The position numbers and the translations under genes are program-made. 64,000 nucleotides of DNA from a virus (Duplodnaviria; Heunggongvirae; Uroviricota; Caudoviricetes), in the IMG/VR virus record IMGVR_UViG_2693429668_000006. One strand, 5' to 3'. Positions within the stretch are counted from its first letter, which is position 1; each line of letters begins with the position of its first letter. Positions 18,871-62,700 of the stretch are shown piece after piece. Below the pieces are notes generated by a model that saw only the letters and a program-made list of their open reading frames with translations, was not told the DNA's origin and made no database searches.

Positions 18871-19230
18871 TCACCCTTTCTTCATCAACTCGCGTTTAAT
18901 TTCATCGGTACGCATCGTGACATCGGCAGCTGTGATCGCCTCGTTAAGTTTCACGATGTCCTCGATTTCCTGCGGTGTCTTCTCCGCAAGATGGAAAATA
19001 GCAGCACGAATCACGTCAGAACGAGTGAACTTCTCGAAGCGAGGGATGAACTTCATCATCTCCAGCAGTTCGAAGTATTCGTCCTCCAGTGACATTGTGC
19101 GGCTTTTAATTTTCTCTTTGCCACGAGTCGGGCGTCCCTGTGGTCTGACTGGTTGGCGCAAAGGAGTTGTGTTCTTAGCCGGTGCATCAGGCTCTTTGCG
19201 CTTTGCTAGGTCACCCATTTTCATGGACAT
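18871..19230 (-). CDS. small partition protein (ParG-like ribbon-helix-helix centromere-binding protein)
   Basis: 119 aa, immediately downstream of ParA with overlapping start/stop; RHH-like C-terminal segment. Confidence 0.45.
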   Translation of the reverse strand: MSMKMGDLAKRKEPDAPAKNTTPLRQPVRPQGRPTRGKEKIKSRTMSLEDEYFELLEMMKFIPRFEKFTRSDVIRAAIFHLAEKTPQEIEDIVKLNEAITAADVTMRTDEIKRELMKKG

Positions 19231-19898
19231 TATTCTTCTTCCTCCAGACTCAACAGATAATCTACAAATTCTTCAAACTCGGCTTCCGCCTTTTTGTCGC
19301 GCTCGCTACCGGTCATTTCAAAGATAGAACGACCAGACTCTTCCGCATCATCATAGACGTTGCGGTTATATAGATTGACTGGCGCAGACTCGATGCCAAA
19401 CGTCTCAACAATCTCTTTAGCCGCCAGAATGCGAGACACTTGTGATGGCAAAGCCGGGCACTGGTTCATGACCGCGCGGACCTTCACTTTATCGTTTACA
19501 TTACGAACATTGTCGATAATAGGATCGATGTCACGCAGAGATTTCAAATCACGACGCTTAGGACGAAGCGGGATAATGATAACGTCGGCCATCAGCATCG
19601 CTTGTCGCTGAATTTCGGAGTCAAAGCCACCAGCATCTACCACTACAAACTCAGCTCTACCCTGAAGCGATTTTAGGTGCTTAATGATGTCATCCTGAAC
19701 GTATGCAAAAGGAATCAGCTCAAGGTCTTCGTTCTGTCGACGGTCTTCACACCAGCTTGTTGTCGTGCGCTGAATATCTATATCAGTGATATAAACCTTC
19801 TTCTTCTTTTTGACTTTCAGGCAAACGGCAATTTGCTGGGCAACGGTGGATTTGCCAGGCCCGCCCTTTGTGCCGCCAACCACAAAGATCTTGGTCAT
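19230..19898 (-). CDS. ParA-family partition ATPase
   Basis: Deviant Walker A VVGGTKGGPGKST at N-terminus; 222 aa. Confidence 0.75.
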   Translation of the reverse strand: MTKIFVVGGTKGGPGKSTVAQQIAVCLKVKKKKKVYITDIDIQRTTTSWCEDRRQNEDLELIPFAYVQDDIIKHLKSLQGRAEFVVVDAGGFDSEIQRQAMLMADVIIIPLRPKRRDLKSLRDIDPIIDNVRNVNDKVKVRAVMNQCPALPSQVSRILAAKEIVETFGIESAPVNLYNRNVYDDAEESGRSIFEMTGSERDKKAEAEFEEFVDYLLSLEEEE

Positions 19899-49086: not shown

Positions 49087-49127
49087 AAAACAACTTGTTT
49101 ACTGCATCTGCTAACCAACTTGTTTTC
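49087..49127. promoter_or_regulatory. two operator-like palindromes (AAAACAACTTGTTT and AACCAACTTGTTTT) upstream of terminase genes
   Basis: Recurring AACAAnTTGTT motif. Confidence 0.4.
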
Positions 49128-49163
49128 TGGGGTGTTTAATTAGGTCTGGCATGTCTTACGAAG

Positions 49164-49518: not shown

Positions 49519-50409
49519 TTATGCCGGTAAAGCAATTTCTAACGGTTTATCCAAAGGTTGTTTGTCGAATGCCAGCAGTGGCAGCGTGTCAGGCAGTCGA
49601 CGGCCAAAGTCAGGGTTTCGGTACACACCATACAACGGAGACGTAAAGCTCAGGTTGTGAATGTCCTTGAGCAGCTTCACAATGCTGGCCTCGTCCACCA
49701 GACTGTCGGCAATGTCCTGAATCGTCGTGCCACGATTCCGCCCAGCTTTTGCCAGGGAACTGTTCTTATGGTAGTCCGCCACCAAATCGCGCAGCGCACG
49801 GCGACGACGAGACTCGCTCATAGCGAACAACTCTTTGACGATCGCCTCGTTATCACCCGGGTCGGAGCGGAAATGGCGCTGGAACACACGCAGTGCACTT
49901 TCATAGCTCTTCGGTCGCTCAGGGCGGATGAACTTAAACCCTGCTTTCATGGCGAAGGGATTGTATTTGCTCATCGAGGACTGGATCTCAATGATTGGCC
50001 GGTCATGCATCCTGCTAACCAGGTTAATCATTCTATAAGAGACGCCTACGCCACGATACTGAGTATCCACAACTGAGCGACTGATCACCGCAAAGTTGTT
50101 ATTCACGTACCGACCCCAGTACTGGTTAGCCACGGTGGTATTAGTGGTTGGTTTCAACTTAGGAAACATGCGGTGGCGAGGTGCCAACAGTAGTTTCGGG
50201 TAAGCCATAACCACGACGCCCACCAGACGGTCATCAAGTTCGCAGCGATAGTAAGTTGGCGCGAAAGGTTTGCCGTCTGTTTTGTAGTGAAGCGACTTAA
50301 GAGCGTGCCAGTCCTCTACAGTTCCCTTTGTAACAGTCATTCGCTCCAGAAAGTCCAGATGACGCGGAAACTCTTCAGGGCGGTAGCGTTTAATGATGAT
50401 GTCCGTCAT
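49519..50409 (-). CDS. GNAT-fold acetyltransferase-like protein
   Basis: Motif A-like VVDTQYRGVGVSYRMINL (Q-x-x-G-x-G); 296 aa; start overlaps stop of ABC ATPase gene. Confidence 0.5.
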   Translation of the reverse strand: MTDIIIKRYRPEEFPRHLDFLERMTVTKGTVEDWHALKSLHYKTDGKPFAPTYYRCELDDRLVGVVVMAYPKLLLAPRHRMFPKLKPTTNTTVANQYWGRYVNNNFAVISRSVVDTQYRGVGVSYRMINLVSRMHDRPIIEIQSSMSKYNPFAMKAGFKFIRPERPKSYESALRVFQRHFRSDPGDNEAIVKELFAMSESRRRRALRDLVADYHKNSSLAKAGRNRGTTIQDIADSLVDEASIVKLLKDIHNLSFTSPLYGVYRNPDFGRRLPDTLPLLAFDKQPLDKPLEIALPA

Positions 50410-51071
50410 GAATGGACCTCATCATGACTACCATTGTGATATTCCACCTTCACGCGTTCTTTGTAGTGCTTGGTGATCTGCATATCAGGGCGCAGCGCGT
50501 TCTTCAGGTCTTCGTGAGTCGTCGCCACCATTACCGTCGCACCAACCTTTCGAGCGGCACGCTGGAGGTTAGACGCCACAACCTGAGCGGTTACACGGTC
50601 GAGAACAGCGCCGAACTCGTCAGCAGCCCATACTTTAGCGCCTGACTCAATCAGTTTGGCAATCTTGAGACGATATTTCTGGCCGTCTGACATTTCAGAA
50701 GGCTTGCGAACAAACAGATATGCATCGTTCAGACCAGCCATAGATAACAACCCAAGCGCATCACTGGTCGTTTTGCCCAACTGATCGATGACGTTAACCT
50801 CATTATCGAAGGTAAAATCATCGATGGAGGCTACAGACAGCCCTTCATCCTTCATCTGTCGTTGCAACTCGCGCAGCACAACGGATTTGCCGGAACCGGA
50901 TTGGCCGGTGATGTACACCACATCGCCCTGCTTCACTTCCAGCTCCAGATTGTCGTAAAGCGTCCACTCTTTTTCGTCCAGGCCAAGCCCGAACGACTCA
51001 GCGATTTCCAACGTGCGCGTGGTTTTATTTACGCGTGTCTGAAACGATACGTTGATGATGTATTTGCTCAT
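50406..51071 (-). CDS. ABC-type ATPase (soluble, single nucleotide-binding domain)
   Basis: Walker A GQSGSGKS, signature MSDGQKYRL, Walker B KVWAADEF, H-loop VATTHE. Confidence 0.65.
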   Translation of the reverse strand: MSKYIINVSFQTRVNKTTRTLEIAESFGLGLDEKEWTLYDNLELEVKQGDVVYITGQSGSGKSVVLRELQRQMKDEGLSVASIDDFTFDNEVNVIDQLGKTTSDALGLLSMAGLNDAYLFVRKPSEMSDGQKYRLKIAKLIESGAKVWAADEFGAVLDRVTAQVVASNLQRAARKVGATVMVATTHEDLKNALRPDMQITKHYKERVKVEYHNGSHDEVHS

Positions 51072-51736
51072 GCAGCCATCTCCCCGGAAGAGATCTTCTC
51101 CGCATATGCCACAAATGCGTCTACCCCGCTTTCTCCCGTCATTTCTTCCATATGGGCAAGCAAATCACCAACAACAATGGCAGAGCCAGCAGGGAGCGTT
51201 TTAAAGCCCAATACGTCGACAACACGTACTTCTTCCGCTGCAACTTCACGACTGATCTCGGTGTGTTCATCCTTCTGTCGTTTAGTTTCTTCGCCAAGAT
51301 CGATAACTAGCGAGTCGGTGTCCATTTCTTCTGTCATACTGCCAACGAGAACATTCAACTCACGCTCTTCAAAGCCGAAAACCTCGATATCGTCCAGAAC
51401 AAGCGACTCAAGCTCTTTCTGTAGCTTAATTGCATCGTAATCAATGCTGGCAAGTCGGTTATCTTCAAGGCGCTTCGCACGAACCTCGTCATCACTGAGA
51501 TCATCGCGAACAATAACCGGTACGCGCTCAAGTCCAGCAAAAATTGCAGCCTCACGGCGGCCGTGGCCAGTAATAATTACGTCGTTCTTATCGACCGTAA
51601 TTGGCTGGTCAAATCCGCGCTTTTTAATGGCTGCGGCTAGATCTCGGATCTGCTGTTCATCATGCTTTTTGGCATTCATCTCATAGGGAATAAGATCTGC
51701 CGGGTCGCGATATACGATTTCAAACTTTTTGGTCAT
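51068..51736 (-). CDS. ParB-like nuclease domain protein
   Basis: ParB/Srx motif ITGHGRREAA; acidic C-terminus; start set at ATG 51736 overlapping upstream stop. Confidence 0.55.
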   Translation of the reverse strand: MTKKFEIVYRDPADLIPYEMNAKKHDEQQIRDLAAAIKKRGFDQPITVDKNDVIITGHGRREAAIFAGLERVPVIVRDDLSDDEVRAKRLEDNRLASIDYDAIKLQKELESLVLDDIEVFGFEERELNVLVGSMTEEMDTDSLVIDLGEETKRQKDEHTEISREVAAEEVRVVDVLGFKTLPAGSAIVVGDLLAHMEEMTGESGVDAFVAYAEKISSGEMAA

Positions 51737-52434
51737 TACATACGCTCCTTGTAGTAGTCGACCAGCCACACCAGAGCCTCACCAGCGTTCTCCATTTCAT
51801 TACCGGTGTTAATAGCCTGCTCTTTGATGATGTTTTTTATGGTTTCTGCAACACGATCTGACGCATCGAAAGTTACTTTGAAGCGCATGGTCTGATGTTC
51901 CGCACCCACACGTTCGGTTTTCTCTCGTTTGTCGGTATCGACAGGCTCATCACTACCACGAGACAACGCCTCCAGTGCTTCAAGGTCGATTGCCGCCTCT
52001 TTTGCTAAAACCATCGAGATTTCGTCGTCATACGGAGCGATTTCAGACAGTTGATAGTCAAGTTCTGACTGAATTTCTTCAATGAAGCGTTGCAATGCGA
52101 TTTGGTCGTCTTCACCGTATCGCTCGTTGTCCACCAGTGACATCTGTTTAGCTACGACATCGCTAATTTTGCCCACAGAAAGCACCGGAACCGTTGAAAT
52201 TCCTTGCTCAATAGCAGCACGCCAGCGATGTTCGCCGCCGAGGATTTCAAAAAATCCATCTTCAAGTTCACGAGCCAAAATTGGCTTAAAAAAGCCCAAT
52301 TTTTCGATAGAACCTTTCAGTTTTTCAAAATTCTGCGCACCAACCGAATTGGTGTTCCAGGTATTCGGGCGAAGGTTGGCAACATCAACCTGCAAAATCG
52401 TGATTTTTACATCCATTTTATTGCTACAATCCAC
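51736..52434 (-). CDS. ParB-like nuclease domain protein (second copy)
   Basis: ParB/Srx motif ILGGEHRWRAA. Confidence 0.55.
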   Translation of the reverse strand: MDCSNKMDVKITILQVDVANLRPNTWNTNSVGAQNFEKLKGSIEKLGFFKPILARELEDGFFEILGGEHRWRAAIEQGISTVPVLSVGKISDVVAKQMSLVDNERYGEDDQIALQRFIEEIQSELDYQLSEIAPYDDEISMVLAKEAAIDLEALEALSRGSDEPVDTDKREKTERVGAEHQTMRFKVTFDASDRVAETIKNIIKEQAINTGNEMENAGEALVWLVDYYKERM

Positions 52435-54365: not shown

Positions 54366-54830
54366 ATGAAGTCTCCCATACTGTTCACTTTCTGTTCTAA
54401 AACTATCATGAAATACTCGCTTCTCCCTCTACTAACGTTACCAGTGTTGATGCTTGCCGCGTGCCAATCACACCCAATATCAATCCATGACGCCAAACCA
54501 GCACCGCAGGCCAAAGTGTTAAAGTATCAAAGCGCAGCGCCAGCTACGTTGGTGGTAATGAGAGACACAGGTTTTGTAGGAGCTGGATGTGATGCTTCCA
54601 TTTTCATCAACGGCGAAACTGTCGCAAAACTGGCTACAGGCGAAAAAGCGACTTTCCATTTAAATGCCGGAGAATTAATTGTGGGTGCATCTCTTGAAGG
54701 TGCAGGTTTATGTGCTCTAAACCCCGCTCGTCAAGAGCGAGAAACGACTCTGAAGAATGGAGACACAAAAGCGTTCAGGGTGTTTACCAGCAATTCTGGT
54801 GACATCGACATTCTGCCAACAACTCTGTGA
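54366..54830 (+). CDS. lipoprotein
   Basis: Signal peptide with lipobox LMLAAC. Confidence 0.5.
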   Translation: MKSPILFTFCSKTIMKYSLLPLLTLPVLMLAACQSHPISIHDAKPAPQAKVLKYQSAAPATLVVMRDTGFVGAGCDASIFINGETVAKLATGEKATFHLNAGELIVGASLEGAGLCALNPARQERETTLKNGDTKAFRVFTSNSGDIDILPTTL

Positions 54831-54834
54831 TGAC

Positions 54835-55359
54835 ATGACAACCAAAGATATTACCTACGGTATCCAAGCTGAACTCTGGCCGCGAGATTACACTAACGTT
54901 GAAAAACTACTGATGTTCTGGCGCAGAGAACAAATTCCTGTAAGGGTCACTCTCGAAGATGGCCAGGCGTTTTGCATGTACGTTTATGGCCTCATGCCAT
55001 CTCGTAACAAAGTTGACCTTTGCCCAGCCCCTTTTGACAAAGAAAATCGTATAAGGCTCCCACTTGAACGCATTAGTACAATTGAATCAGGTGTGGTTGA
55101 CAGTATCGCTCACGATTTCAAAGGTCGACTAACAGTTCACCCTGATTATGTCGATAATCGGCCATCACGCCGCGATTTTTTTGCAATTTGCAACCAAGCC
55201 TACAAAGCAAACAAATCTATAAGGGTGTACATGGCGGATGGCCGTGAAATTGAGGGGGTGTCAGCAGGCGCAGATGCTTGTCAGGTTACACTACGTGTCG
55301 AGAACGGTAGAAAAATAGTTGTTTTGTTCGATTGGGTTGAACGAATTTTGCCTTTTTGA
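54835..55359 (+). CDS. hypothetical protein; start uncertain
   Basis: ORF track (54757 start overlaps previous gene); internal ATG at 54835. Confidence 0.4.
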   Translation: MTTKDITYGIQAELWPRDYTNVEKLLMFWRREQIPVRVTLEDGQAFCMYVYGLMPSRNKVDLCPAPFDKENRIRLPLERISTIESGVVDSIAHDFKGRLTVHPDYVDNRPSRRDFFAICNQAYKANKSIRVYMADGREIEGVSAGADACQVTLRVENGRKIVVLFDWVERILPF

Positions 55360-55954: not shown

Positions 55955-56605
55955 ATGGCTAACATTATCATTTCTAAAAAATCCATCATTGAAGCTGCTT
56001 CCATTGTATCCGATGAACTGCGCGAAAAAGCAGATCTGGCAACTCAAACATATAACGAACATTATAAAAATGGTACGCACACTAAAGCAGACAAAGCAAA
56101 TATGCAAGCTGCGACCACTAAACTTGCTTACTTCATCAACAACGTCGTAAACGCAGTAGAAGACGAAAAATTATGCTCTGTTTTCTACTATGCGATTAAA
56201 GCAAGCAAACAAGCGCCAGAAGTATTTTTCCGTGATGCAATGACTAATAGTTATTCTCTGGAAAAACTGGTTTATCTGGTTAAATCAATTAAATCTGGTA
56301 AATGCGTTTATTCCATCGCTGATATGTCTGGATCTCGTGTATTCGCTTTAATCGATATGATTAACGACGAGATCGACACGTTCACTAATGGCGCTGTTTT
56401 CGATTTAATGAATGAAGCTAAAAAAGCGTGTGAAATTAAATTGGACGCTGGTTATACTCAAGCCAACCAGTTGATCAATCTTTGCGAACGTCTTGGACTT
56501 GTTGAAAAAGTCAAAGGAGCTGGGAGCGCGAAAGCTGGTACTCAGCAATATCGCTTCATTAAAAATGATTTCTACAATTATTTAGCTGATGCTTTCAAAG
56601 CGTAA
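55955..56605 (+). CDS. hypothetical protein (AT-rich early-type gene)
   Basis: ORF track, 216 aa; AT-rich upstream region; hairpin 56618..56636 downstream. Confidence 0.5.
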   Translation: MANIIISKKSIIEAASIVSDELREKADLATQTYNEHYKNGTHTKADKANMQAATTKLAYFINNVVNAVEDEKLCSVFYYAIKASKQAPEVFFRDAMTNSYSLEKLVYLVKSIKSGKCVYSIADMSGSRVFALIDMINDEIDTFTNGAVFDLMNEAKKACEIKLDAGYTQANQLINLCERLGLVEKVKGAGSAKAGTQQYRFIKNDFYNYLADAFKA

Positions 56606-56653
56606 TTAATGGAATCAAGCGCCCACTATGGGCGCTTTAAAGGAGCTTTGAAA

Positions 56654-56857
56654 ATGGTCAGCTATGACAAGATCCGCGCGGAATATCGCGCAAAGTATCG
56701 CGCTTATAAACTAGAATTAATCGATGATTTAATCGCGCAACGCGACCAATTAAATTTTACGTTTTCTGATTTGCTTAACAGCAAGCGAGATTGCAAGCGC
56801 AAACGTGAATACTTACGTTTAAGCGCATTAATCGGAAAACTTCAAAATTCTATTTAA
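56654..56857 (+). CDS. hypothetical small protein
   Basis: ATG at 56654 preceded by SD AAAGGAG; the ORF-track start at 56609 would include the hairpin. Confidence 0.4.
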   Translation: MVSYDKIRAEYRAKYRAYKLELIDDLIAQRDQLNFTFSDLLNSKRDCKRKREYLRLSALIGKLQNSI

Positions 56858-56877
56858 TTTTTTTAAGGAGCTTAATC

Positions 56878-57108
56878 ATGTTTGTTCTTATCGCTGGCGT
56901 TAACGTCCATAACGAATATTATGTTAATCGCATCGCTGGGATCGCTGGTTACGCTGGGCGCGCAGTCGAGTTTATCGATGAAACAACGCGTAAAATTGAT
57001 TTATTGAGCGACCAGGAGCGAAAAAAAGCAGACGTGAACGACGCTGATATATTTTTAATGTTAAAAGCGTTTGTAGAAATGGGATTTAAAATCAGTTTAC
57101 ACAAATAA
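56878..57108 (+). CDS. hypothetical small protein
   Basis: ORF track, 76 aa; followed by two terminators. Confidence 0.4.
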   Translation: MFVLIAGVNVHNEYYVNRIAGIAGYAGRAVEFIDETTRKIDLLSDQERKKADVNDADIFLMLKAFVEMGFKISLHK

Positions 57109-57113
57109 AATCG

Positions 57114-57139
57114 AGCGCCCACTATGGGCGCTTTTTTCG
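57114..57139 (+). terminator. rho-independent terminator
   Basis: Hairpin AGCGCCCACTATGGGCGCT followed by TTTTTCG; identical hairpin at 56618..56636. Confidence 0.55.
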
Positions 57140-57159
57140 TTTCCAATACTTCCACAATA

Positions 57160-57186
57160 ACGCGCCATTGATGGCGCGTTTTTTAT
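57160..57186 (+). terminator. rho-independent terminator (second, tandem)
   Basis: Hairpin ACGCGCCATTGATGGCGCGT followed by TTTTTTA. Confidence 0.5.
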
Positions 57187-57600
57187 TGTCTTTAACTCAC
57201 TCCAACAACATAAAAATAAGCGCCAAAATAACGCCATAAACGCGCTTTTATATCCTTACCAGTACATACCCATTACTTAACACATTAACGCGCTTAAAAC
57301 GCGTTATATTGCGCTATAGCGTATGGTTAATCATTGGCTTTTAGTCTTGCTATGTGATCCGCGTTTATTTGTCGGCGCGGATCGGCATTTTGTTTTGTTC
57401 CGTATCCGCTCGCGTATTATGTGCGCGTGATTTTTCACATAATCACACCACTTAATCACGTATGTGATTATGCTACGAAAGAAATCTGGATGTCTCAGGC
57501 GACGAAAGTCATCATAATTTTCCCCGCTCGCCTGTCCGACAACCGCTGGTTGGATTCCACCAGCTTCCCGATGTTTTTTTCTACATAAAGGCGAATGCAG

Positions 57601-57710
57601 CCGTTTCCCGAAAAAATCCTGGCCGTTTCCCGTCGGCTCATGAATACGTTCCTCGCCGTTTCTGAAAATTTCCCTGCGGCAGCTGGTGGCTATAGAGAAA
57701 GGGCCGTTTC
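57601..57710. repeat. iteron cluster 1 (four GCCGTTTC(C/T) repeats)
   Basis: CCGTTTC at 57601, 57623, 57656, 57704. Confidence 0.55.
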
Positions 57711-57722
57711 TGGCCCTCTTCT
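57697..57722 (-). terminator. rho-independent terminator after gene 57726..58208
   Basis: Minus-strand hairpin GGGCCAGAAACGGCCC followed by TTTCTCT. Confidence 0.45.
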
Positions 57723-57725
57723 CAG

Positions 57726-58208
57726 TTACACGCCATCAAGGATGTGGATGCGGTTGCTTGCGTATACATTCAGCATAAAGTTAGCGCAAAACAGTTTCCA
57801 TGTATCAACGCCAGCGGTATACGTAATGTTTTTGCATTTAATCGCATTGTTGGCGATCCGCATCCCCTGCGATACTGCTTCATCGTCGGAAAATTTGAAC
57901 GACGATTGAGTTTTAATCCAGACAGAAATCTGCGTAGCGAACTCAATCAGCTTGGACTGGCAGAATCGCCCGGAGCGCACCGGAAAGACGAACGTTCCGA
58001 ATCCAGAATTTACCACATATGCTTTCTCAAATACCCGCGAGTAACGACGATTGCCAATGATGTCGCGTGCAATAATGCATTTTTCTTGTGCTGACAGTTC
58101 TACCGTCTCATTGTCGCGCCATGCACCAAGTACTCGTTTTTCAATGTCAGAGAACGTTACAGCGATATTGCCATGTGCGGGTGCGTTTACAGTAGCGATA
58201 AAATTCAT
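57726..58208 (-). CDS. hypothetical protein (accessory array)
   Basis: ORF track, 160 aa; own promoter/operator motif at 58227..58260. Confidence 0.5.
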   Translation of the reverse strand: MNFIATVNAPAHGNIAVTFSDIEKRVLGAWRDNETVELSAQEKCIIARDIIGNRRYSRVFEKAYVVNSGFGTFVFPVRSGRFCQSKLIEFATQISVWIKTQSSFKFSDDEAVSQGMRIANNAIKCKNITYTAGVDTWKLFCANFMLNVYASNRIHILDGV

Positions 58209-58226
58209 GATTAATTCCTTATCGTA

Positions 58227-58260
58227 AATAACAAATTGTTTTCTTGTTGGTGTTAATTAT
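58227..58260 (-). promoter_or_regulatory. conserved promoter-operator element (extended -10 TGCGATAAT plus AACAAATTGTT palindrome)
   Basis: Near-identical element repeated at 58714..58750 and 60851..60890. Confidence 0.5.
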
Positions 58261-58412
58261 CGTTGTACGAATAAGGCGTCAAAGTGGAAAGTTGCGGTAG
58301 CCGGACGGGAACAGGTGGGTTTGTCGGTTGCCTGGAGGTAAGAGGTTGGTGTTTTTAGCCTGCGGGAAACAGGATGGTCATTTAAGGCCACCAGCATTGG
58401 TGGCCTTAATCT

Positions 58413-58700
58413 TTAGTGGAGCAGACCGATGTCGATGGTATCCCCTGAATCATCCACACGGATCATCAGCATGGCAAAGGCGTTTAGTGGATAGCTTGCG
58501 TGCCATTCAGGGAAGCGGTCATCTCGCATGAAGTCGGCAATGTCGTAAACGCATCCCTCAAAGTGGAAGAATCGCGTGCTTACCTGCTCGTCATAATCCA
58601 CATGATCCATTTCTTGCTGTTCTGTTTCCGGCAAGTCCAGCCATGATTCAAGAAATACATTTTGTGCTTTAGGGGTAATGGTGAAATCAGTCATGAGCAT
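58413..58700 (-). CDS. hypothetical small acidic protein (accessory array)
   Basis: ATG at 58700 with SD GAGG; ORF track start at 58826 would overlap the promoter element. Confidence 0.4.
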   Translation of the reverse strand: MLMTDFTITPKAQNVFLESWLDLPETEQQEMDHVDYDEQVSTRFFHFEGCVYDIADFMRDDRFPEWHASYPLNAFAMLMIRVDDSGDTIDIGLLH

Positions 58701-58883
58701 ATCCTCACTGCGTAAACATGTTGTTTTCTTGTTGGTGTAATTATCGCAGTGTAGATAAGGCATAAAAGAAGTTAATACAGGCTGAATACACAAGAAAGGT
58801 TCTGGAAGTTGATAGCCAGGTTTCAAACTAACCTTCGGTTATTAAAAGTCATTTAAGACCACCAATGCTGGTGGCCTTAATAA

Positions 58884-59027
58884 TTATCGCCCGATTACGC
58901 TAAGGATCTTTTCCTCAACTGATTTGTTGTTGCGACTAAACTGCCTTGCGTATCTGATGACAGAAGAGGCGTTTTGCTTTCTGACCATCTCGGCTCTTTC
59001 CTTCAGGCGTTTCTTGAAATCGCCCAT
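58884..59027 (-). CDS. possible small basic protein (47 aa)
   Basis: Hand-translated MGDFKKRLKERAEMVRKQNASS...; below ORF-track cutoff; hairpin 58855..58878 downstream. Confidence 0.25.
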   Translation of the reverse strand: MGDFKKRLKERAEMVRKQNASSVIRYARQFSRNNKSVEEKILSVIGR

Positions 59028-59029
59028 AT

Positions 59030-59404
59030 TTACCACCAGGCGCAGAAGGTCAGTCTGTTATTGTGAAAGTCGTGGTTCTTAATCAGATCTTCCACAAGCT
59101 CTTTCAACTCCCCCACATCATGCCAGTAACCTTCATCGTACTCCTGACTGCCGAAGAAAAAACCTTCCCGGGTAGGCAAGTACTCTTCGCAATTACTTTC
59201 GTTTATGTGCATCAAATGAGCCTTCAGAAAACAAATGTCATTCATCGTTAATTCTAAAAGCTCACAATTTTCGACTTCACCTACGTTGCGCTCCATCCAC
59301 CCAACGAGCGCATTGAACTTACGGAAGTAAGCAACCTGCTTTCTGGATGCCTCGTTATTCAGATCGTTTTTAGGCTGTGTCTCGATATAGATATCAAGTC
59401 CCAT
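59030..59404 (-). CDS. hypothetical protein (accessory array)
   Basis: ATG at 59404 with SD AAGGAA. Confidence 0.4.
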   Translation of the reverse strand: MGLDIYIETQPKNDLNNEASRKQVAYFRKFNALVGWMERNVGEVENCELLELTMNDICFLKAHLMHINESNCEEYLPTREGFFFGSQEYDEGYWHDVGELKELVEDLIKNHDFHNNRLTFCAWW

Positions 59405-59490
59405 GATGGTTTCCTTATTAAGTTGCTTCAGTGAAATCATTTTCACAAATCAGATAAGGCAGAAAACAAATTGTTATCGGGCTTAATAAA

Positions 59491-59517
59491 ATGGCGCGGT
59501 TTACGCGCCATTTAAAG
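59491..59517 (-). terminator. rho-independent terminator after gene 59522..59917
   Basis: Hairpin ATGGCGCG-GTTTA-CGCGCCAT followed on minus strand by TTTATT. Confidence 0.5.
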
Positions 59518-59521
59518 AGGA

Positions 59522-59917
59522 TTAAGCGAATACGCTTTCAGGGATTAAGGTGTCGGCAGGAATGCCAGAGGTAATGCGCAGGCCGTACTGACCAATCCAG
59601 GTAGTGTTGGTATTCAGGTTGGAGGCGAATACGGTGTTAACCATATTCATCATGGTTTCAAACACCTCTTCATCAACCTGGCGGAAGTAGCTCTCGATTT
59701 TCAGCAGCAGCGGGTCAGTTGCATCGAGAATGGACTGGTATTGAGTCGCGTACTCGCCGTCGGAGTCATCACCTTTACGCACGATCGTACTGGCCTGTAC
59801 TTCGGCGCCAGTTTCGGTGTTGTACGTAACAACGGTGATTTTTGCCACATTCTTACCTTCGGCGGTTTCAGAGGCATAGTAAACATCAACTGTCAGTTTT
59901 TCGCGTTTAATGGTCAT
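59522..59917 (-). CDS. hypothetical protein (accessory array)
   Basis: ATG at 59917 with SD GGAGAG. Confidence 0.45.
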   Translation of the reverse strand: MTIKREKLTVDVYYASETAEGKNVAKITVVTYNTETGAEVQASTIVRKGDDSDGEYATQYQSILDATDPLLLKIESYFRQVDEEVFETMMNMVNTVFASNLNTNTTWIGQYGLRITSGIPADTLIPESVFA

Positions 59918-60043
59918 TTCACTCTCCGTAGTGTATTGGTTATTTTTATATTCTATGATCGTAAGTATGTACTTACAATACAAAAAAGCCCCGTAAGGAT
60001 GGCGGGGCTGTCGTACTGTCGACTAATTACCACTTGCACATTA

Positions 60044-60355
60044 TCAGGCTATTGCCATCACTGATGCTCTCTGAATCTCTTGCTGGGCCACGCGGTTAAC
60101 TTCCATCAAGGCCAGTTCGAGCTGATGTTCCGGCCACATTCTTTGAAATGCCACCCAGCCTTTTCCACGCTGGCGACGAACATTCATTACATAACGAGTA
60201 AAGGTGTTTTTATCGAAAGACACCGCTGTTTCACGGAACAGACGAATAGAGGTTCCATTGGCAACGATGTCCAGCAAAGTTAATTGAGCAACCAGCGCAG
60301 GCTTCTCTTTTCTCTTCTGGTCTTTGTCCAGACCAAGAACCAATGATTTTTTCAT
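60044..60355 (-). CDS. hypothetical basic protein, possible DNA-binding (accessory array)
   Basis: ATG at 60355 with SD GGAG; 103 aa. Confidence 0.4.
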   Translation of the reverse strand: MKKSLVLGLDKDQKRKEKPALVAQLTLLDIVANGTSIRLFRETAVSFDKNTFTRYVMNVRRQRGKGWVAFQRMWPEHQLELALMEVNRVAQQEIQRASVMAIA

Positions 60356-60508
60356 CACAACTCCGTAAACAACTTGTTTTCTCAATGGCGTAAATAATAC
60401 CAGTAAGAAAACGGCTACAAAGCATAATGATCAGGTGCATGATCGATATGCAGGTTCTTCCCTGCGGCTATAGAGAAATTAAGCCAGCAATGCTGGCTTT
60501 GGTTGGGA

Positions 60509-60838
60509 TTACGCGAATACCTCAAGAAACTCCTGAACGTCCCAATGCTGGACGAGGTGAAGATAGACCTTAGAAATCACGTCATTTTCGCTATCGCATG
60601 TGAAGTAGTACTTCTGGCTGCGGTTGTATGTGTCCACACAAAATTCGCTCATATCCATAAAGTCAGCATCTTCACCCATGTCGCAAATCATCAAAGCAGG
60701 TGCATCATCACGAGTCATCAGCTCAAGCACCCACCGCGAATTGATCAGAGTGGAAGACCAACCTTCCAGCTCATAGAACTGGTCAAACTCTTTTTGAGTC
60801 AATTTCTTGATTTGGTTGATGTCGATATGTGCAAACAT
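60509..60838 (-). CDS. hypothetical acidic protein (accessory array)
   Basis: ATG at 60838 with SD AAGGA; the first ATG in the ORF lies inside the conserved operator motif. Confidence 0.4.
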   Translation of the reverse strand: MFAHIDINQIKKLTQKEFDQFYELEGWSSTLINSRWVLELMTRDDAPALMICDMGEDADFMDMSEFCVDTYNRSQKYYFTCDSENDVISKVYLHLVQHWDVQEFLEVFA

Positions 60839-61202
60839 AAAGCAATCCTTAAACAACATGTTTTCTTGATGGTGTTATTATCGCAATAACGCACAGGCGA
60901 AAAAGGATTTTATTCCGGTGAATGTGGTTTTGGCAGTGAGTTTTCAGGTTCAGTACCGAGAACACTTTTTACATTATTCTGATTTAGTGGCCGAAGGTGG
61001 CTGGTGGGCAGAATAATCATCTCCCCGAAAACCTACTGAAATCGATTGTGACCCGTTGGCTGTCTGGCACAATTACGCTGTAGCTGGGCATTCAGAGGGA
61101 ATCCAGCGGTAAGTAAGTTCGCCTGCACGTGAGCGCCTCTCTTCTTCCCGCACATTACAGGTGGGTAGCCGCAACTCTCCCTCACGCTATACCGGTACGC
61201 CG

Positions 61203-61337
61203 CCGTTCCTGAACCGGCATCGAGCCTTTTCCCGAAACCCACACAGGCAACTCGACCGTTTCCCTGAAAACCTCCAGCCGTTCCCCGAAGGCAACCCAGC
61301 CGTTTCTGTAGCGGGATGCAACCTTTTCCCTGTATGG
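61203..61337. repeat. iteron cluster 2 (six CCGTTTCCC-type repeats phased about 21-22 bp)
   Basis: Repeats start at 61203, 61225, 61257, 61278, 61299, 61322. Confidence 0.6.
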
Positions 61338-62400
61338 ACCGAAGGCTGACCGTAGGGGTGTTACGGGGGATAAAATCAGGAGTTGAATAAATACGAAAAA
61401 GGAGGCGACACCCCTCCTTCCCTCCCCACTTATACATACCTGGCTTCTTCGCTATACATGTTGTGTTTTATCTGTCTCAACCTCTCTATAGGCGTTAATG
61501 CTCACTCCTTCCAGAATGTTCTATACGGCGACTATTTCTGTTGGTGAATTGGGCGTGTTGTTCTCTCTGTCGGTGTAAATGGTTTCGTTCGTTTTGCGGT
61601 GGTTCTTCTATGGGGTGTTCTCGTCGTTTTGGTGATTGTTCTTCTCCGTGTATGGAGTAATGGCAGGTGGGCGATTGCTTTCGTTATTGTGTTTGAGTTG
61701 TTTGTCTGGAGTGTGTGAAAGGCTTTTGTAGTTATTCGTGTATTGGGTAATGGCGTTTCCCGTGATTGTTATGTTTCGTGTCTTTTGGGATTGAGAGAAA
61801 CCTTGCGGTTACAGGCTTCGTTGGGGTTTCAGCGGTTCAGGTGTTTCTTCGCTGTTTGGGTAATGGCGTGTCGTGGGTATCGCGCGTATGAATGTTTTCG
61901 GATTGCCTGTGAAAGTTAGGTTGGTTGTCCGGTAGCCTGGGGAGAAGAGGTGGGTCTTTTCGGTAGCCTGCCATAAAGAGGTTGGTTGTTTTGGGGAATG
62001 GCATGTGTGTTATTTAGTTGTTTTGTTATGCCTGAAAATAAGTTGTTTATATGGTTGTGTAACGCAACGGGAACGATTTTGAGCGTGTGTTTTTGTTGGT
62101 AGTGTGTTGGGTCGTCTGTGGTGAAAATTGGACGCTGTGGCGCTGTCTGCTGCGTAGAATTACGGGTATAAGCAGTGATGTGTGAAAACGTCAATTTTTT
62201 AGACCAAATCGGATGAAAGCGTTGATGTTTCGTTGATCTGTTATTCAGTTGTTTTCTTGATTGTATAAACAACTATAACTTATTGATATTTAAGGATGTG
62301 ATTGCGGGTATGGAAGGGGAGTAGTGGCGATCAACGGATTCTTATAGAAAAGAATCAAATTGTGACCGCCATTATCAACGGTTTGAATCTGTTTGCAGAT

Positions 62401-62700
62401 TTACCAGTTCCAGCACTCAAGCCCTTCAACGACCGGCGCACCACAATCAAAATGTACAGAGTCAAAGCCTACATCAAGTACTTTCTGAATGTTAGCAATC
62501 GCGCCTTCGGATATACCATATCGACGCAAGTCGTCTTTCCAGACATCATCCTGTAACCCGGCGTGGACAATACAACCGCCGTCAATTTGCGAAACCCAAT
62601 CCAGCTCATTGCTTGCGATCATGAATCGGCGAGCATCTTCCTCTGATGTATGAGATGAGCTGATCAATGCCACCTGGTAGGCTTGGGTAATGTTCAACAT
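62401..62700 (-). CDS. hypothetical protein (last gene of element before host junction)
   Basis: ATG at 62700 with SD GGAG; operator-type motifs at 62713..62779 upstream. Confidence 0.4.
   Translation of the reverse strand: MLNITQAYQVALISSSHTSEEDARRFMIASNELDWVSQIDGGCIVHAGLQDDVWKDDLRRYGISEGAIANIQKVLDVGFDSVHFDCGAPVVEGLECWNW

What the first reader, a model, noticed from the sequence alone, without database searches (positions are those of the whole stretch)
57595..57715. Second cluster of the same iteron motif about 3.5 kb away
GCCGTTTCCCGAAAAAA (57601), GCCGTTTCCCGTCGG (57623), GCCGTTTCTGAAAATTTCCC (57656) and GCCGTTTCTGGCCC (57704) repeat the motif of the 61203..61337 cluster. They lie just past the terminator of gene 57726..58208 and next to an AT-rich region with several palindromes (57240..57480). 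Two iteron clusters bracketing the accessory gene array would fit origin plus incompatibility/handcuffing sites.
Basis: seen in the sequence. Interest (0 to 1): 0.5.

Follow-up and report, generated by a model that had tools for sequence, protein, structure and literature searches.

The report
Conserved phased repeat arrays, phage-plasmid
Two clusters of the short DNA repeat GCCGTTTCCC are a real, undescribed and strongly conserved protein-docking element of the SSU5/pHCM2 family of phage-plasmids; they are not the plasmid's replication iterons and are most likely plasmid-segregation (centromere-like) sites, which remains unproven.

Summary
Four same-strand copies of GCCGTTTC lie at 57600-57710 and six related copies at 61202-61345, and the motif does not cluster anywhere else in the window or in a complete 110.7-kb relative.

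The window is an E. coli SSU5/pHCM2-like phage-plasmid. Its plasmid replicon (RepA) lies about 35 kb away, outside the window. RepA has different iterons (aTCCACTaTAGaGAG) on both sides, so the "origin plus handcuffing" reading of the plasmid replicon fails.

Both clusters sit in non-coding DNA at the same syntenic positions in Escherichia, Klebsiella, Salmonella, Enterobacter and Cronobacter elements, and in Moellerella (Morganellaceae). The core is unchanged there although neighbouring proteins fall to 30-50% identity or are absent.

T[TC]C[CT] tracts recur every 10-11, 21-23 and 32-33 bp, which places them on one face of the DNA helix. RNA folding is no better than shuffled sequence.

The element carries a type Ib ParA plus a 119-aa ribbon-helix-helix-like partner with no repeat array beside it. 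Two virion-less derivatives of 52 and 62 kb keep RepA, the par genes and both clusters.

Best guess (about 0.35): centromere-like arrays for that par system. Rivals: a lytic origin, operator or insulator arrays, or RNA hairpins. Interest is moderate.

The parts
57600..57723 (+). Cluster 1: strong units start at 57600, 57622, 57655 and 57703 (spacing 22, 33, 48). Weaker T[TC]C[CT] tracts lie between them, about 10-11 bp from their neighbours. Copy 4 lies in the hairpin 57695-57723.
   Evidence: conserved in 27 distinct relatives
61202..61345 (+). Cluster 2: six units with CC starts at 61203, 61225, 61256, 61278, 61300 and 61322 (spacing 22, 31, 22, 22, 22).
61347..61358 (+). Block CTGACCGTAGGG immediately right of cluster 2. 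GACCG[T/C/A]AGGG is kept in the Enterobacteriaceae lineages and AACCGTAGGG in Moellerella.
57109..57599 (.). Conserved non-coding region left of cluster 1. It holds two + strand terminators (57113-57133, 57159-57180), AACGCGC-type palindromes, the invariant block GTACATACCCATTAC, and the inverted repeat TCACATAATCACA/GTGATTATG.
57682..57689 (+). Chi site GCTGGTGG between unit 3 and the terminator hairpin.
61396..61422 (-). Terminator-like hairpin on the minus strand. It ends the upstream minus-strand transcription unit just before cluster 2.
61430..62400 (.). About 1 kb of conserved non-coding DNA next to cluster 2. It is GT-rich on the + strand and carries GGGTAATGGCR repeats.
57726..60859 (-). 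Array of small genes of unknown function bracketed by the two clusters. Several have a repeated promoter/leader module of their own.
19230..19898 (-). Type Ib ParA/MipZ-like ATPase, the candidate partition motor.
18871..19230 (-). 119-aa ParA partner, ribbon-helix-helix-like, with segments (V/K)IKSRT(M/V)S.EDE and (T/S)RSDV(I/F)RAA kept in all lineages examined. It is the candidate binder, by inference only.

Best explanation
SHOWN: the two clusters are one family of same-orientation direct repeats in non-coding DNA with the core (G)CCGTTTCC(C). Strong copies alternate with weaker TT(T)CCY or AACCYCC copies, so pyrimidine tracts recur about every 11 bp, on one face of the helix. The family belongs to the conserved backbone of SSU5/pHCM2-type phage-plasmids and is unrelated to the RepA iterons. 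INFERRED: each array is coated by an oligomer of one conserved DNA-binding protein encoded by the element. The most likely reading is that the arrays are centromere-like partition sites. The 119-aa ribbon-helix-helix-like partner of the type Ib ParA (18871..19898) would bind the phased repeats as tandem dimers. ParA-ATP on the nucleoid would then pull the two partition complexes, and with them the low-copy plasmid prophage, into both daughter cells. As with other small centromere-binding proteins, the bound arrays may also insulate or silence the adjacent leftward promoters. The stated confidence applies to the centromere mechanism. Confidence that these are DNA-level protein-binding arrays, and not RepA iterons, is about 0.8.
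For: (1) Clustering, orientation and absence elsewhere. (2) Pairs of T[TC]C[CT] tracts pile up at lags 10-11, 21-23 and 32-33 bp, with none at 14-17 or 26-29, against 0.4-0.9 per lag in shuffles. (3) Both clusters are kept at syntenic positions with an unchanged core in E. coli, Klebsiella, Salmonella SSU5, Enterobacter and Cronobacter, in the distant lineage OW968253.1 and in Moellerella. Kluyvera and Buttiauxella contigs also carry the motif pair. Spacers, copy number and spacing vary between lineages. (4) A k-mer scan of a whole 110.7-kb relative finds only two families of tight direct-repeat arrays outside coding chance hits: the RepA iterons and this motif. (5) The element has a ParA/MipZ-like ATPase and an overlapping 119-aa gene. 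No tandem repeats lie upstream or downstream of them. (6) The partner has a strand-helix-helix pattern. Its putative DNA-reading segment IKSRT(M/V)S is kept even in Moellerella, where overall identity is 28%. This parallels the unchanged DNA core. Distant homologues are labelled Arc/MetJ-type RHH by their source. (7) Two independent virion-less derivatives, p3RM15113 (62 kb) and pRHB27-C04_3 (52 kb), keep RepA, ParA plus partner, both clusters and the adjacent non-coding DNA. The second has also lost helicase and primase and has IS100 inserted between cluster 2 and the array promoter. (8) From memory, not tested here: centromeres far from the par operon are known in the phage-plasmid N15, and phased 11- or 20-bp repeat centromeres in R1 parC and pSK41 parC.
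Confidence: 0.35

Rival explanations
1. Phage-mode (lytic) replication origin or origins. The arrays would be iterons for an unidentified phage initiator that recruits the element's own DnaB-like helicase, primase and Pol III alpha. Two iteron sites would be used as in Bacillus phage SPP1 oriL/oriR (recalled from memory). The adjacent conserved non-coding DNA would supply the unwinding or priming region.
For: The element encodes a full replisome but no lytic origin is known. The repeats are iteron-like and phased. Both clusters sit in unusually large conserved non-coding regions of 0.6 and 1.5 kb. The region next to cluster 2 has a strong GC skew and further repeats. pMT1, which lost helicase and primase, also lost cluster 2.
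Against: There is no AT-rich unwinding element directly beside either array (GC 0.48-0.61 at the arrays). No DnaA or IHF sites are present. No initiator gene lies adjacent, and the neighbouring 160-aa and FljA-like proteins are absent from Moellerella, where the motif persists. The 52-kb derivative without helicase or primase keeps both arrays. Cumulative GC skew shows no turning point here.
Confidence: 0.2
2. Operator or insulator arrays for a transcription factor, either another conserved protein of the element or a host protein common to Enterobacterales. Bound arrays placed just after minus-strand terminators would set the boundaries of, or regulate, the leftward units that follow: the small-gene array and whatever is transcribed leftward from cluster 1.
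For: On the minus strand both arrays follow a terminator and precede promoter-like sites at 60936-60907 and at 57538-57511 / 57496-57467. The bracketed genes share a repeated promoter/leader module and look co-regulated. An unchanged core across host families would fit a host factor.
Against: The promoter-like sites next to cluster 1 are not conserved in relatives. Cluster 2 is 270-400 bp from its promoter and is separated from it by IS100 in pRHB27-C04_3. I could recall no known Enterobacterales regulator site that matches GCCGTTTCCC (memory only). The nearby FljA-like regulator is 32% identical in OW968253.1 and absent from Moellerella.
Confidence: 0.2
3. RNA-level element: each unit is a small hairpin (GCCG - UUUCCC.. 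- CGGC) in a transcript, read by an RNA-binding protein. One version is a CsrA-type sponge on the minus strand, where the loops read GGGAAA or CAGGGA.
For: Most units can close a 3-5 bp stem around the core. The outer pair covaries: hairpin 2 has G-C in 5, G-T in 14 and A-T in 4 sequences; hairpin 3 has G-C in 14 and C-G in 5. Partner sequences differ between lineages but stay complementary (read by eye).
Against: Folding energies are ordinary, with z from -0.45 to -1.5 on either strand. Wobble evidence contradicts itself between strands. The ~11-bp phasing is a property of duplex DNA. Three of ten copies lack GGA, and the invariant part is GAAACGG, not GGA. Terminators lie upstream of both arrays on the minus strand, and no + strand promoter was found. 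Rfam gives nothing.
Confidence: 0.07
4. One reading: extra RepA iterons acting as incompatibility or handcuffing sites for the plasmid origin.
For: Iteron-like size and spacing, and two clusters.
Against: The RepA iterons have a different sequence and already flank repA on both sides. The motif is constant across different replicon types.
Confidence: 0.02
5. Packaging recognition (pac) sites for the terminase and ParB-like proteins of the late operon.
For: The packaging module is the best conserved part of the element: TerL is 91% and the ABC-type ATPase 86% identical to OW968253.1. That would fit an unchanged recognition site.
Against: The arrays are 9-13 kb from the terminase genes. They are kept in derivatives that have lost the terminase and all virion genes. 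Two arrays 3.6 kb apart in direct orientation are not a known pac layout.
Confidence: 0.04

Closest known systems
Type Ib / type II plasmid centromeres made of phased direct repeats bound by ribbon-helix-helix proteins (TP228 parH-ParG, pSM19035 omega sites, R1 parC-ParR, pSK41 parC); recalled from memory
   Same: Short direct repeats in one orientation, phased at about one or two helical turns, in more than one cluster. A Walker-type ParA plus a small RHH-like partner are encoded by the same element.
   Different: The arrays lie 38-42 kb from the par operon and do not overlap its promoter. Binding is untested and the RHH fold is not confirmed. The 10-bp core is long for one RHH dimer.
Dispersed centromeres of the phage-plasmid N15 (sop system); recalled from memory, and the Ravin, Rech and Lane 2008 title is listed in PMC11652158
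   Same: A phage-plasmid whose centromere sites lie far from the partition genes, inside phage gene regions.
   Different: N15 uses single palindromes bound by a large SopB/ParB (type Ia), not arrays of direct repeats.
Iteron origins with inc/handcuffing arrays (P1 oriR/incA, RepFIB), present in this same element family around repA
   Same: Direct repeats of about 20 bp periodicity in two sets.
   Different: Different sequence, no adjacent rep gene, no DnaA boxes, and a core that stays constant across replicon types.
Phage origins with initiator-binding repeats (lambda ori iterons; SPP1 oriL/oriR); recalled from memory
   Same: Four to six repeats with partial internal dyads spaced about 22 bp apart. 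Two copies per genome in SPP1.
   Different: The arrays are neither inside nor beside an initiator gene, and no flanking AT-rich unwinding element is present.

Membership tests
RepA iteron / incompatibility (handcuffing) array | Repeat sequence matches the iterons next to the rep gene | tested here: not met
   The RepA iterons read aTCCACTaTAGaGAG. CCACTRTAG occurs 13 times around repA in pGD31-F25 and once elsewhere there, and only once in the window.
RepA iteron / incompatibility (handcuffing) array | Repeats co-vary with replicon type | tested here: not met
   The same core is found in elements typed IncFIB and rep_cluster_763, 2469 and 488, and in an untyped one.
Iteron-type origin (plasmid or phage) | Direct repeats of 17-22 bp in phase | tested here: met
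   Spacings are 22/33/48 and 22/31/22/22/22, with an ~11-bp sub-period.
Iteron-type origin (plasmid or phage) | Adjacent AT-rich unwinding element and host-factor sites (DnaA, IHF) | tested here: not met
   GC is 0.48-0.61 at and beside the arrays. No DnaA box (up to 1 mismatch) or IHF consensus lies next to them.
Iteron-type origin (plasmid or phage) | Initiator gene containing or adjoining the repeats | tested here: inconclusive
   The neighbours have no family or fold match. The 160-aa and FljA-like genes are absent from Moellerella although the motif is kept.
Type Ib partition centromere | Cognate Walker-type ParA plus small centromere-binding protein in the element | tested here: met
   ParA/MipZ-like gene at 19230..19898 and an overlapping 119-aa gene.
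Type Ib partition centromere | Centromere-binding protein has a ribbon-helix-helix fold | tested here: inconclusive
   [not shown]
Type Ib partition centromere | Repeats lie next to or overlap the par promoter | tested here: not met
   No arrays flank the par genes, and the clusters are 38-42 kb away.
Type Ib partition centromere | The protein binds the repeats, and the repeats stabilise a plasmid in cis | not testable with these tools
   This needs EMSA or ChIP and stability assays.
Structured RNA / CsrA-type sponge | Fold more stable than shuffled sequence, with GGA in every loop | tested here: not met
   z scores run from -0.45 to -1.5. Three of ten units lack GGA. Rfam has no match.
pac site | Within or beside the terminase genes, and dispensable once packaging genes are lost | tested here: not met
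   The arrays are 9-13 kb from the terminase genes and are kept in derivatives that lack the terminase.

The most novel reading that the evidence does not exclude
The two arrays, together with the about 1 kb conserved GT-rich non-coding stretch beside cluster 2, form a so-far unrecognised backbone cis-module of SSU5-type phage-plasmids. It would be either the missing phage-mode origin or a pair of loading sites from which a conserved protein (the RHH partner or the ParB-like proteins) encloses and silences the variable small-gene array during plasmid life. In either case one DNA word would have been kept unchanged across at least three bacterial families while replicons and neighbouring genes were exchanged.
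Probability: 0.2. Interest if true: 0.65.

Novelty: new member of a known kind. Interest (0 to 1): 0.45.

Why it matters
SSU5/pHCM2-like phage-plasmids are common in clinical Enterobacterales: about 800 PLSDB records, and 239 of 5,426 complete E. coli genomes carry this very region. They carry resistance genes and include Y. pestis pMT1. How they segregate, where phage-mode replication starts and how their accessory-gene array is controlled are all unknown. The papers searched mention no iterons or centromere for this group. A 10-bp word that stays constant from Escherichia to Moellerella marks a binding site under strong constraint. That gives a concrete handle for finding its protein, for building stable or curable derivatives, and for typing this family.

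Tried and rejected
1. FljA-like regulator (54757..55359) as binder: rejected. It is 32% identical in OW968253.1 and absent from Moellerella, where the motif is kept.

3. CsrA sponge or structured RNA: rejected.

4. Small ORF 57490-57588 and ORFs 61033..61437 and 61916..62272: not coding. They show no codon periodicity, have frame-breaking indels, and the 22-nt repeat unit is not a multiple of three.

5. GC-skew mapping of an origin: uninformative, because the skew falls monotonically with gene orientation.

6. Host-factor sites: no DnaA, IHF or GATC signal. Matching the core to known regulator sites from memory gave nothing.

7. Motif pair outside the family: IMG/VR and GTDB scans returned only SSU5-like elements plus chance hits.

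8. pMT1 as a natural experiment: confounded, because it lost ParA plus partner, helicase, primase and cluster 2 together.

9. Distant homologues of the ParA partner in other contexts: Xenorhabdus is again SSU5-like, and the Pantoea and IncF copies are fragments.

10. Literature: nothing on these repeats. One preprint on phage-plasmid copy number could not be opened.

Full report
WHAT THE WINDOW IS. Window 56500-62500 is 100% identical to the plasmid record MF554642.1 and 97-99% identical to many 105-115 kb E. coli plasmids. It is 97.7% identical to phage Cyrano (pLF82) and more distantly related to Klebsiella phages and Salmonella phage SSU5. The element is therefore an SSU5/pHCM2-type phage-plasmid. 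The complete, well-annotated relative pGD31-F25 (NZ_CP031294.1, 110,686 bp) was used as a map.

THE OBSERVATION.
- The degenerate pattern CCKTTYCY has 13 + strand hits in the window. Ten of them fall in the two clusters, all in one orientation.
- The overall count is at chance level (16 observed, 14.8 simulated). Clusters of 6 and 4 hits within 150 bp are not: 300 Markov simulations never exceeded 3.
- In pGD31-F25 the motif again clusters only at the two homologous places.
- Copy 4 is part of the hairpin 57695-57723 that ends the minus-strand gene 57726..58208.

NOT THE PLASMID REPLICON.
- In pGD31-F25, repA lies at 1-1056. The two clusters lie at 72.4 and 76.0 kb.
- repA is flanked on both sides by its own iterons, aTCCACTaTAGaGAG, with DnaA-box-like sequences nearby.
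- CCACTRTAG occurs 13 times around repA and once elsewhere in that plasmid, and only once in the window, which does not contain the replicon.
- The origin-plus-handcuffing architecture therefore already exists elsewhere, with another sequence.

CONSERVATION.
- Both clusters occur at the same syntenic places in Klebsiella, Salmonella SSU5, Enterobacter and Cronobacter elements.
- Those places are just past the 3' end of the 483-nt gene, and at the left end of a 1.5-kb gene-free stretch upstream of the small-gene array.
- Kluyvera and Buttiauxella contigs carry the cluster 1 motif pair, and the Kluyvera sp. contig also shows a six-copy array.
- Forty-one distinct cluster 1 sequences and 42 distinct cluster 2 sequences were collected. 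The core is invariant or nearly so, while spacers, copy number (2-6) and spacing (22, 23, 24, 31, 33, 37) vary.
- In K. pneumoniae plasmid OW968253.1 the flanking proteins are only 30-50% identical to those of the window, yet AGCCGTTTCCCGAAA is kept.
- In Moellerella wisconsensis pW18-2-b (Morganellaceae) the 160-aa and FljA-like genes are absent, yet both clusters are present as CCCGTTTCCCGAAACC.. and GCCGTTTCCCGAAACC...
- Scans of IMG/VR and of one genome per GTDB species found the motif pair only in SSU5-like elements, apart from chance hits.
- Y. pestis pMT1 keeps cluster 1. It has no cluster 2 and no GT-rich region in the 97% of the record that was scanned.

DNA OR RNA.
- Both regions are non-coding. 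There is no codon periodicity (76/71/75 mismatches by phase, against 71/16/30 in a control gene), and indels are frequent and often break the reading frame.
- Each unit can form a short hairpin, GCCG-TTTCCC..-CGGC, and the outer pair covaries.
- Folding energies are nevertheless ordinary on both strands (z from -0.45 to -1.5), and wobble pairs favour opposite strands in different units.
- Rfam finds nothing.
- Pairs of T[TC]C[CT] tracts pile up at lags 10-11, 21-23 and 32-33 bp and are absent at 14-17 and 26-29 bp. Strong GCCGTTTCCC copies alternate with weak TT(T)CCY or AACCYCC copies.
- This is the helical repeat of duplex DNA and points to a protein oligomer bound along one face.

WHO BINDS.
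- The FljA-like regulator and the 160-aa neighbour are excluded by their absence from Moellerella. The 160-aa protein also has no fold match.
- A k-mer scan of the whole relative shows only two families of tight direct-repeat arrays: the RepA iterons and this motif.
- The element encodes a type Ib ParA/MipZ-like ATPase (19230..19898) whose stop overlaps the start of a 119-aa gene.
- That protein has a conserved N-terminal peptide (MGDLAKR), a basic arm (RPQGRPTRGK) and a strand-helix-helix pattern, IKSRTMSLEDE...FTRSDVIRAAI.
- The strand IKSRT(M/V)S is kept even in Moellerella, at 28% overall identity.
- No tandem repeats flank the par genes.
- ParA and its partner occur in the same roughly 800 plasmids as the clusters, but not in Yersinia.
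- Two independent derivatives that have lost all virion and packaging genes keep RepA, ParA plus partner, both clusters and the adjacent non-coding DNA. They are p3RM15113 (62 kb) and pRHB27-C04_3 (52 kb), and the second has also lost helicase and primase.

VERDICT ON MECHANISM.
- The best-supported reading is that the arrays are centromere-like sites for the ParA-partner system, possibly doubling as insulators or silencers.
- The support is circumstantial. The arrays are 38-42 kb from the par genes. The parA promoter has no copy of the motif but carries the palindrome AAACAAGTTGTTT, which recurs at nine or more promoters and could be the partner's real target. The pMT1 correlation is confounded.
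- I put the centromere reading at 0.35.
- A phage-mode origin gets 0.2. Large conserved non-coding context and an unknown lytic origin speak for it. The lack of an unwinding element, of DnaA or IHF sites and of an adjacent initiator speaks against it.
- Operator or insulator arrays for another factor get 0.2. Both arrays follow minus-strand terminators and precede promoter-like sites, but those sites are poorly conserved.
- RNA hairpins get 0.07, pac sites 0.04 and RepA handcuffing 0.02.

NOVELTY. Full-text searches found no description of these repeats, nor of a centromere or lytic origin, for the SSU5 group. The feature is a new family of a known kind of element, a phased array of direct-repeat binding sites. 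Its unusual traits are its distance from any candidate partner gene, its pairing around a variable gene array, and a core that stays constant across bacterial families while replicons change.

Noticed in passing
window 16182, 19949, 49099-49128, 58244, 58729, 59475, 60382, 60866, 62257, 62729, 62778 (minus strand): The 13-bp palindrome AAACAAnTTGTTT, within AAGAAAACAAnTTGTTT, lies just after a -10-like GATAAT/TAATTA box and 25-35 nt before start codons. It precedes the helicase, ParA, terS-like and small array genes. It looks like a phage-wide promoter/operator module for a global regulator.
   Followed up: partly
window 61430-62400: About 1 kb of conserved non-coding DNA, roughly 75% identical to the Salmonella and Enterobacter lineages and without codon periodicity. 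It is GT-rich on the + strand (GC skew up to +0.67) and carries GGGTAATGGCR repeats. It is kept in a 52-kb derivative and has a comparable GT-rich, gene-free counterpart in Moellerella. It could be a long RNA or a cis-acting DNA region.
   Followed up: partly
window 58230-58289, 58714-58773, 59439-59472, 60368-60422, 60852-60910: Repeated 34-55-nt promoter/leader modules (for example TTGACG-N17-TAATTA) in front of several small minus-strand genes of the bracketed array. Several genes therefore seem to have their own copy of one promoter.
   Followed up: no
window 58292-58383 and 61918-61991: A family of 30-nt direct repeats (TTGCGGTAGCCGGACGGGAACAGGTGGGTT and relatives), two copies at each of two places 3.6 kb apart (families D2 and D4).
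   Followed up: no
window 57682, 57557(-), 58388(-), 58867, 61000 and nine more: There are 14 Chi sites (GCTGGTGG) in 64 kb, five of them between 57.5 and 61.0 kb. One lies inside cluster 1 and is conserved in the E. coli and Klebsiella lineages. A 28-nt hairpin at 58382 and 58853 carries Chi.
   Followed up: partly
window 57150-57480: AACGCGC-type palindromes, an invariant block GTACATACCCATTAC (57262-57276), and the inverted repeat TCACATAATCACA/GTGATTATG. All are conserved across five lineages and their function is unknown.
   Followed up: no
[not shown]
   Followed up: yes
window 54757..55359 (+): A homologue of FljA, the repressor of phase-1 flagellin (PF03614, E 2.5e-84), carried by the phage-plasmid. 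It might silence host flagellin.
   Followed up: no
window 50406..52434 (minus strand): Two ParB N-terminal-domain proteins and an ABC-type ATPase head the operon that runs into the terminase genes. The ATPase (86%) and TerL (91%) are the best conserved proteins between distant lineages.
   Followed up: partly
L137 (CP057434.1, pRHB27-C04_3) and L134 (CP043251.1, p3RM15113): Natural 52- and 62-kb derivatives have lost all virion genes but keep RepA, ParA plus partner and the region studied here. They would be useful minimal plasmids for experiments.
   Followed up: partly
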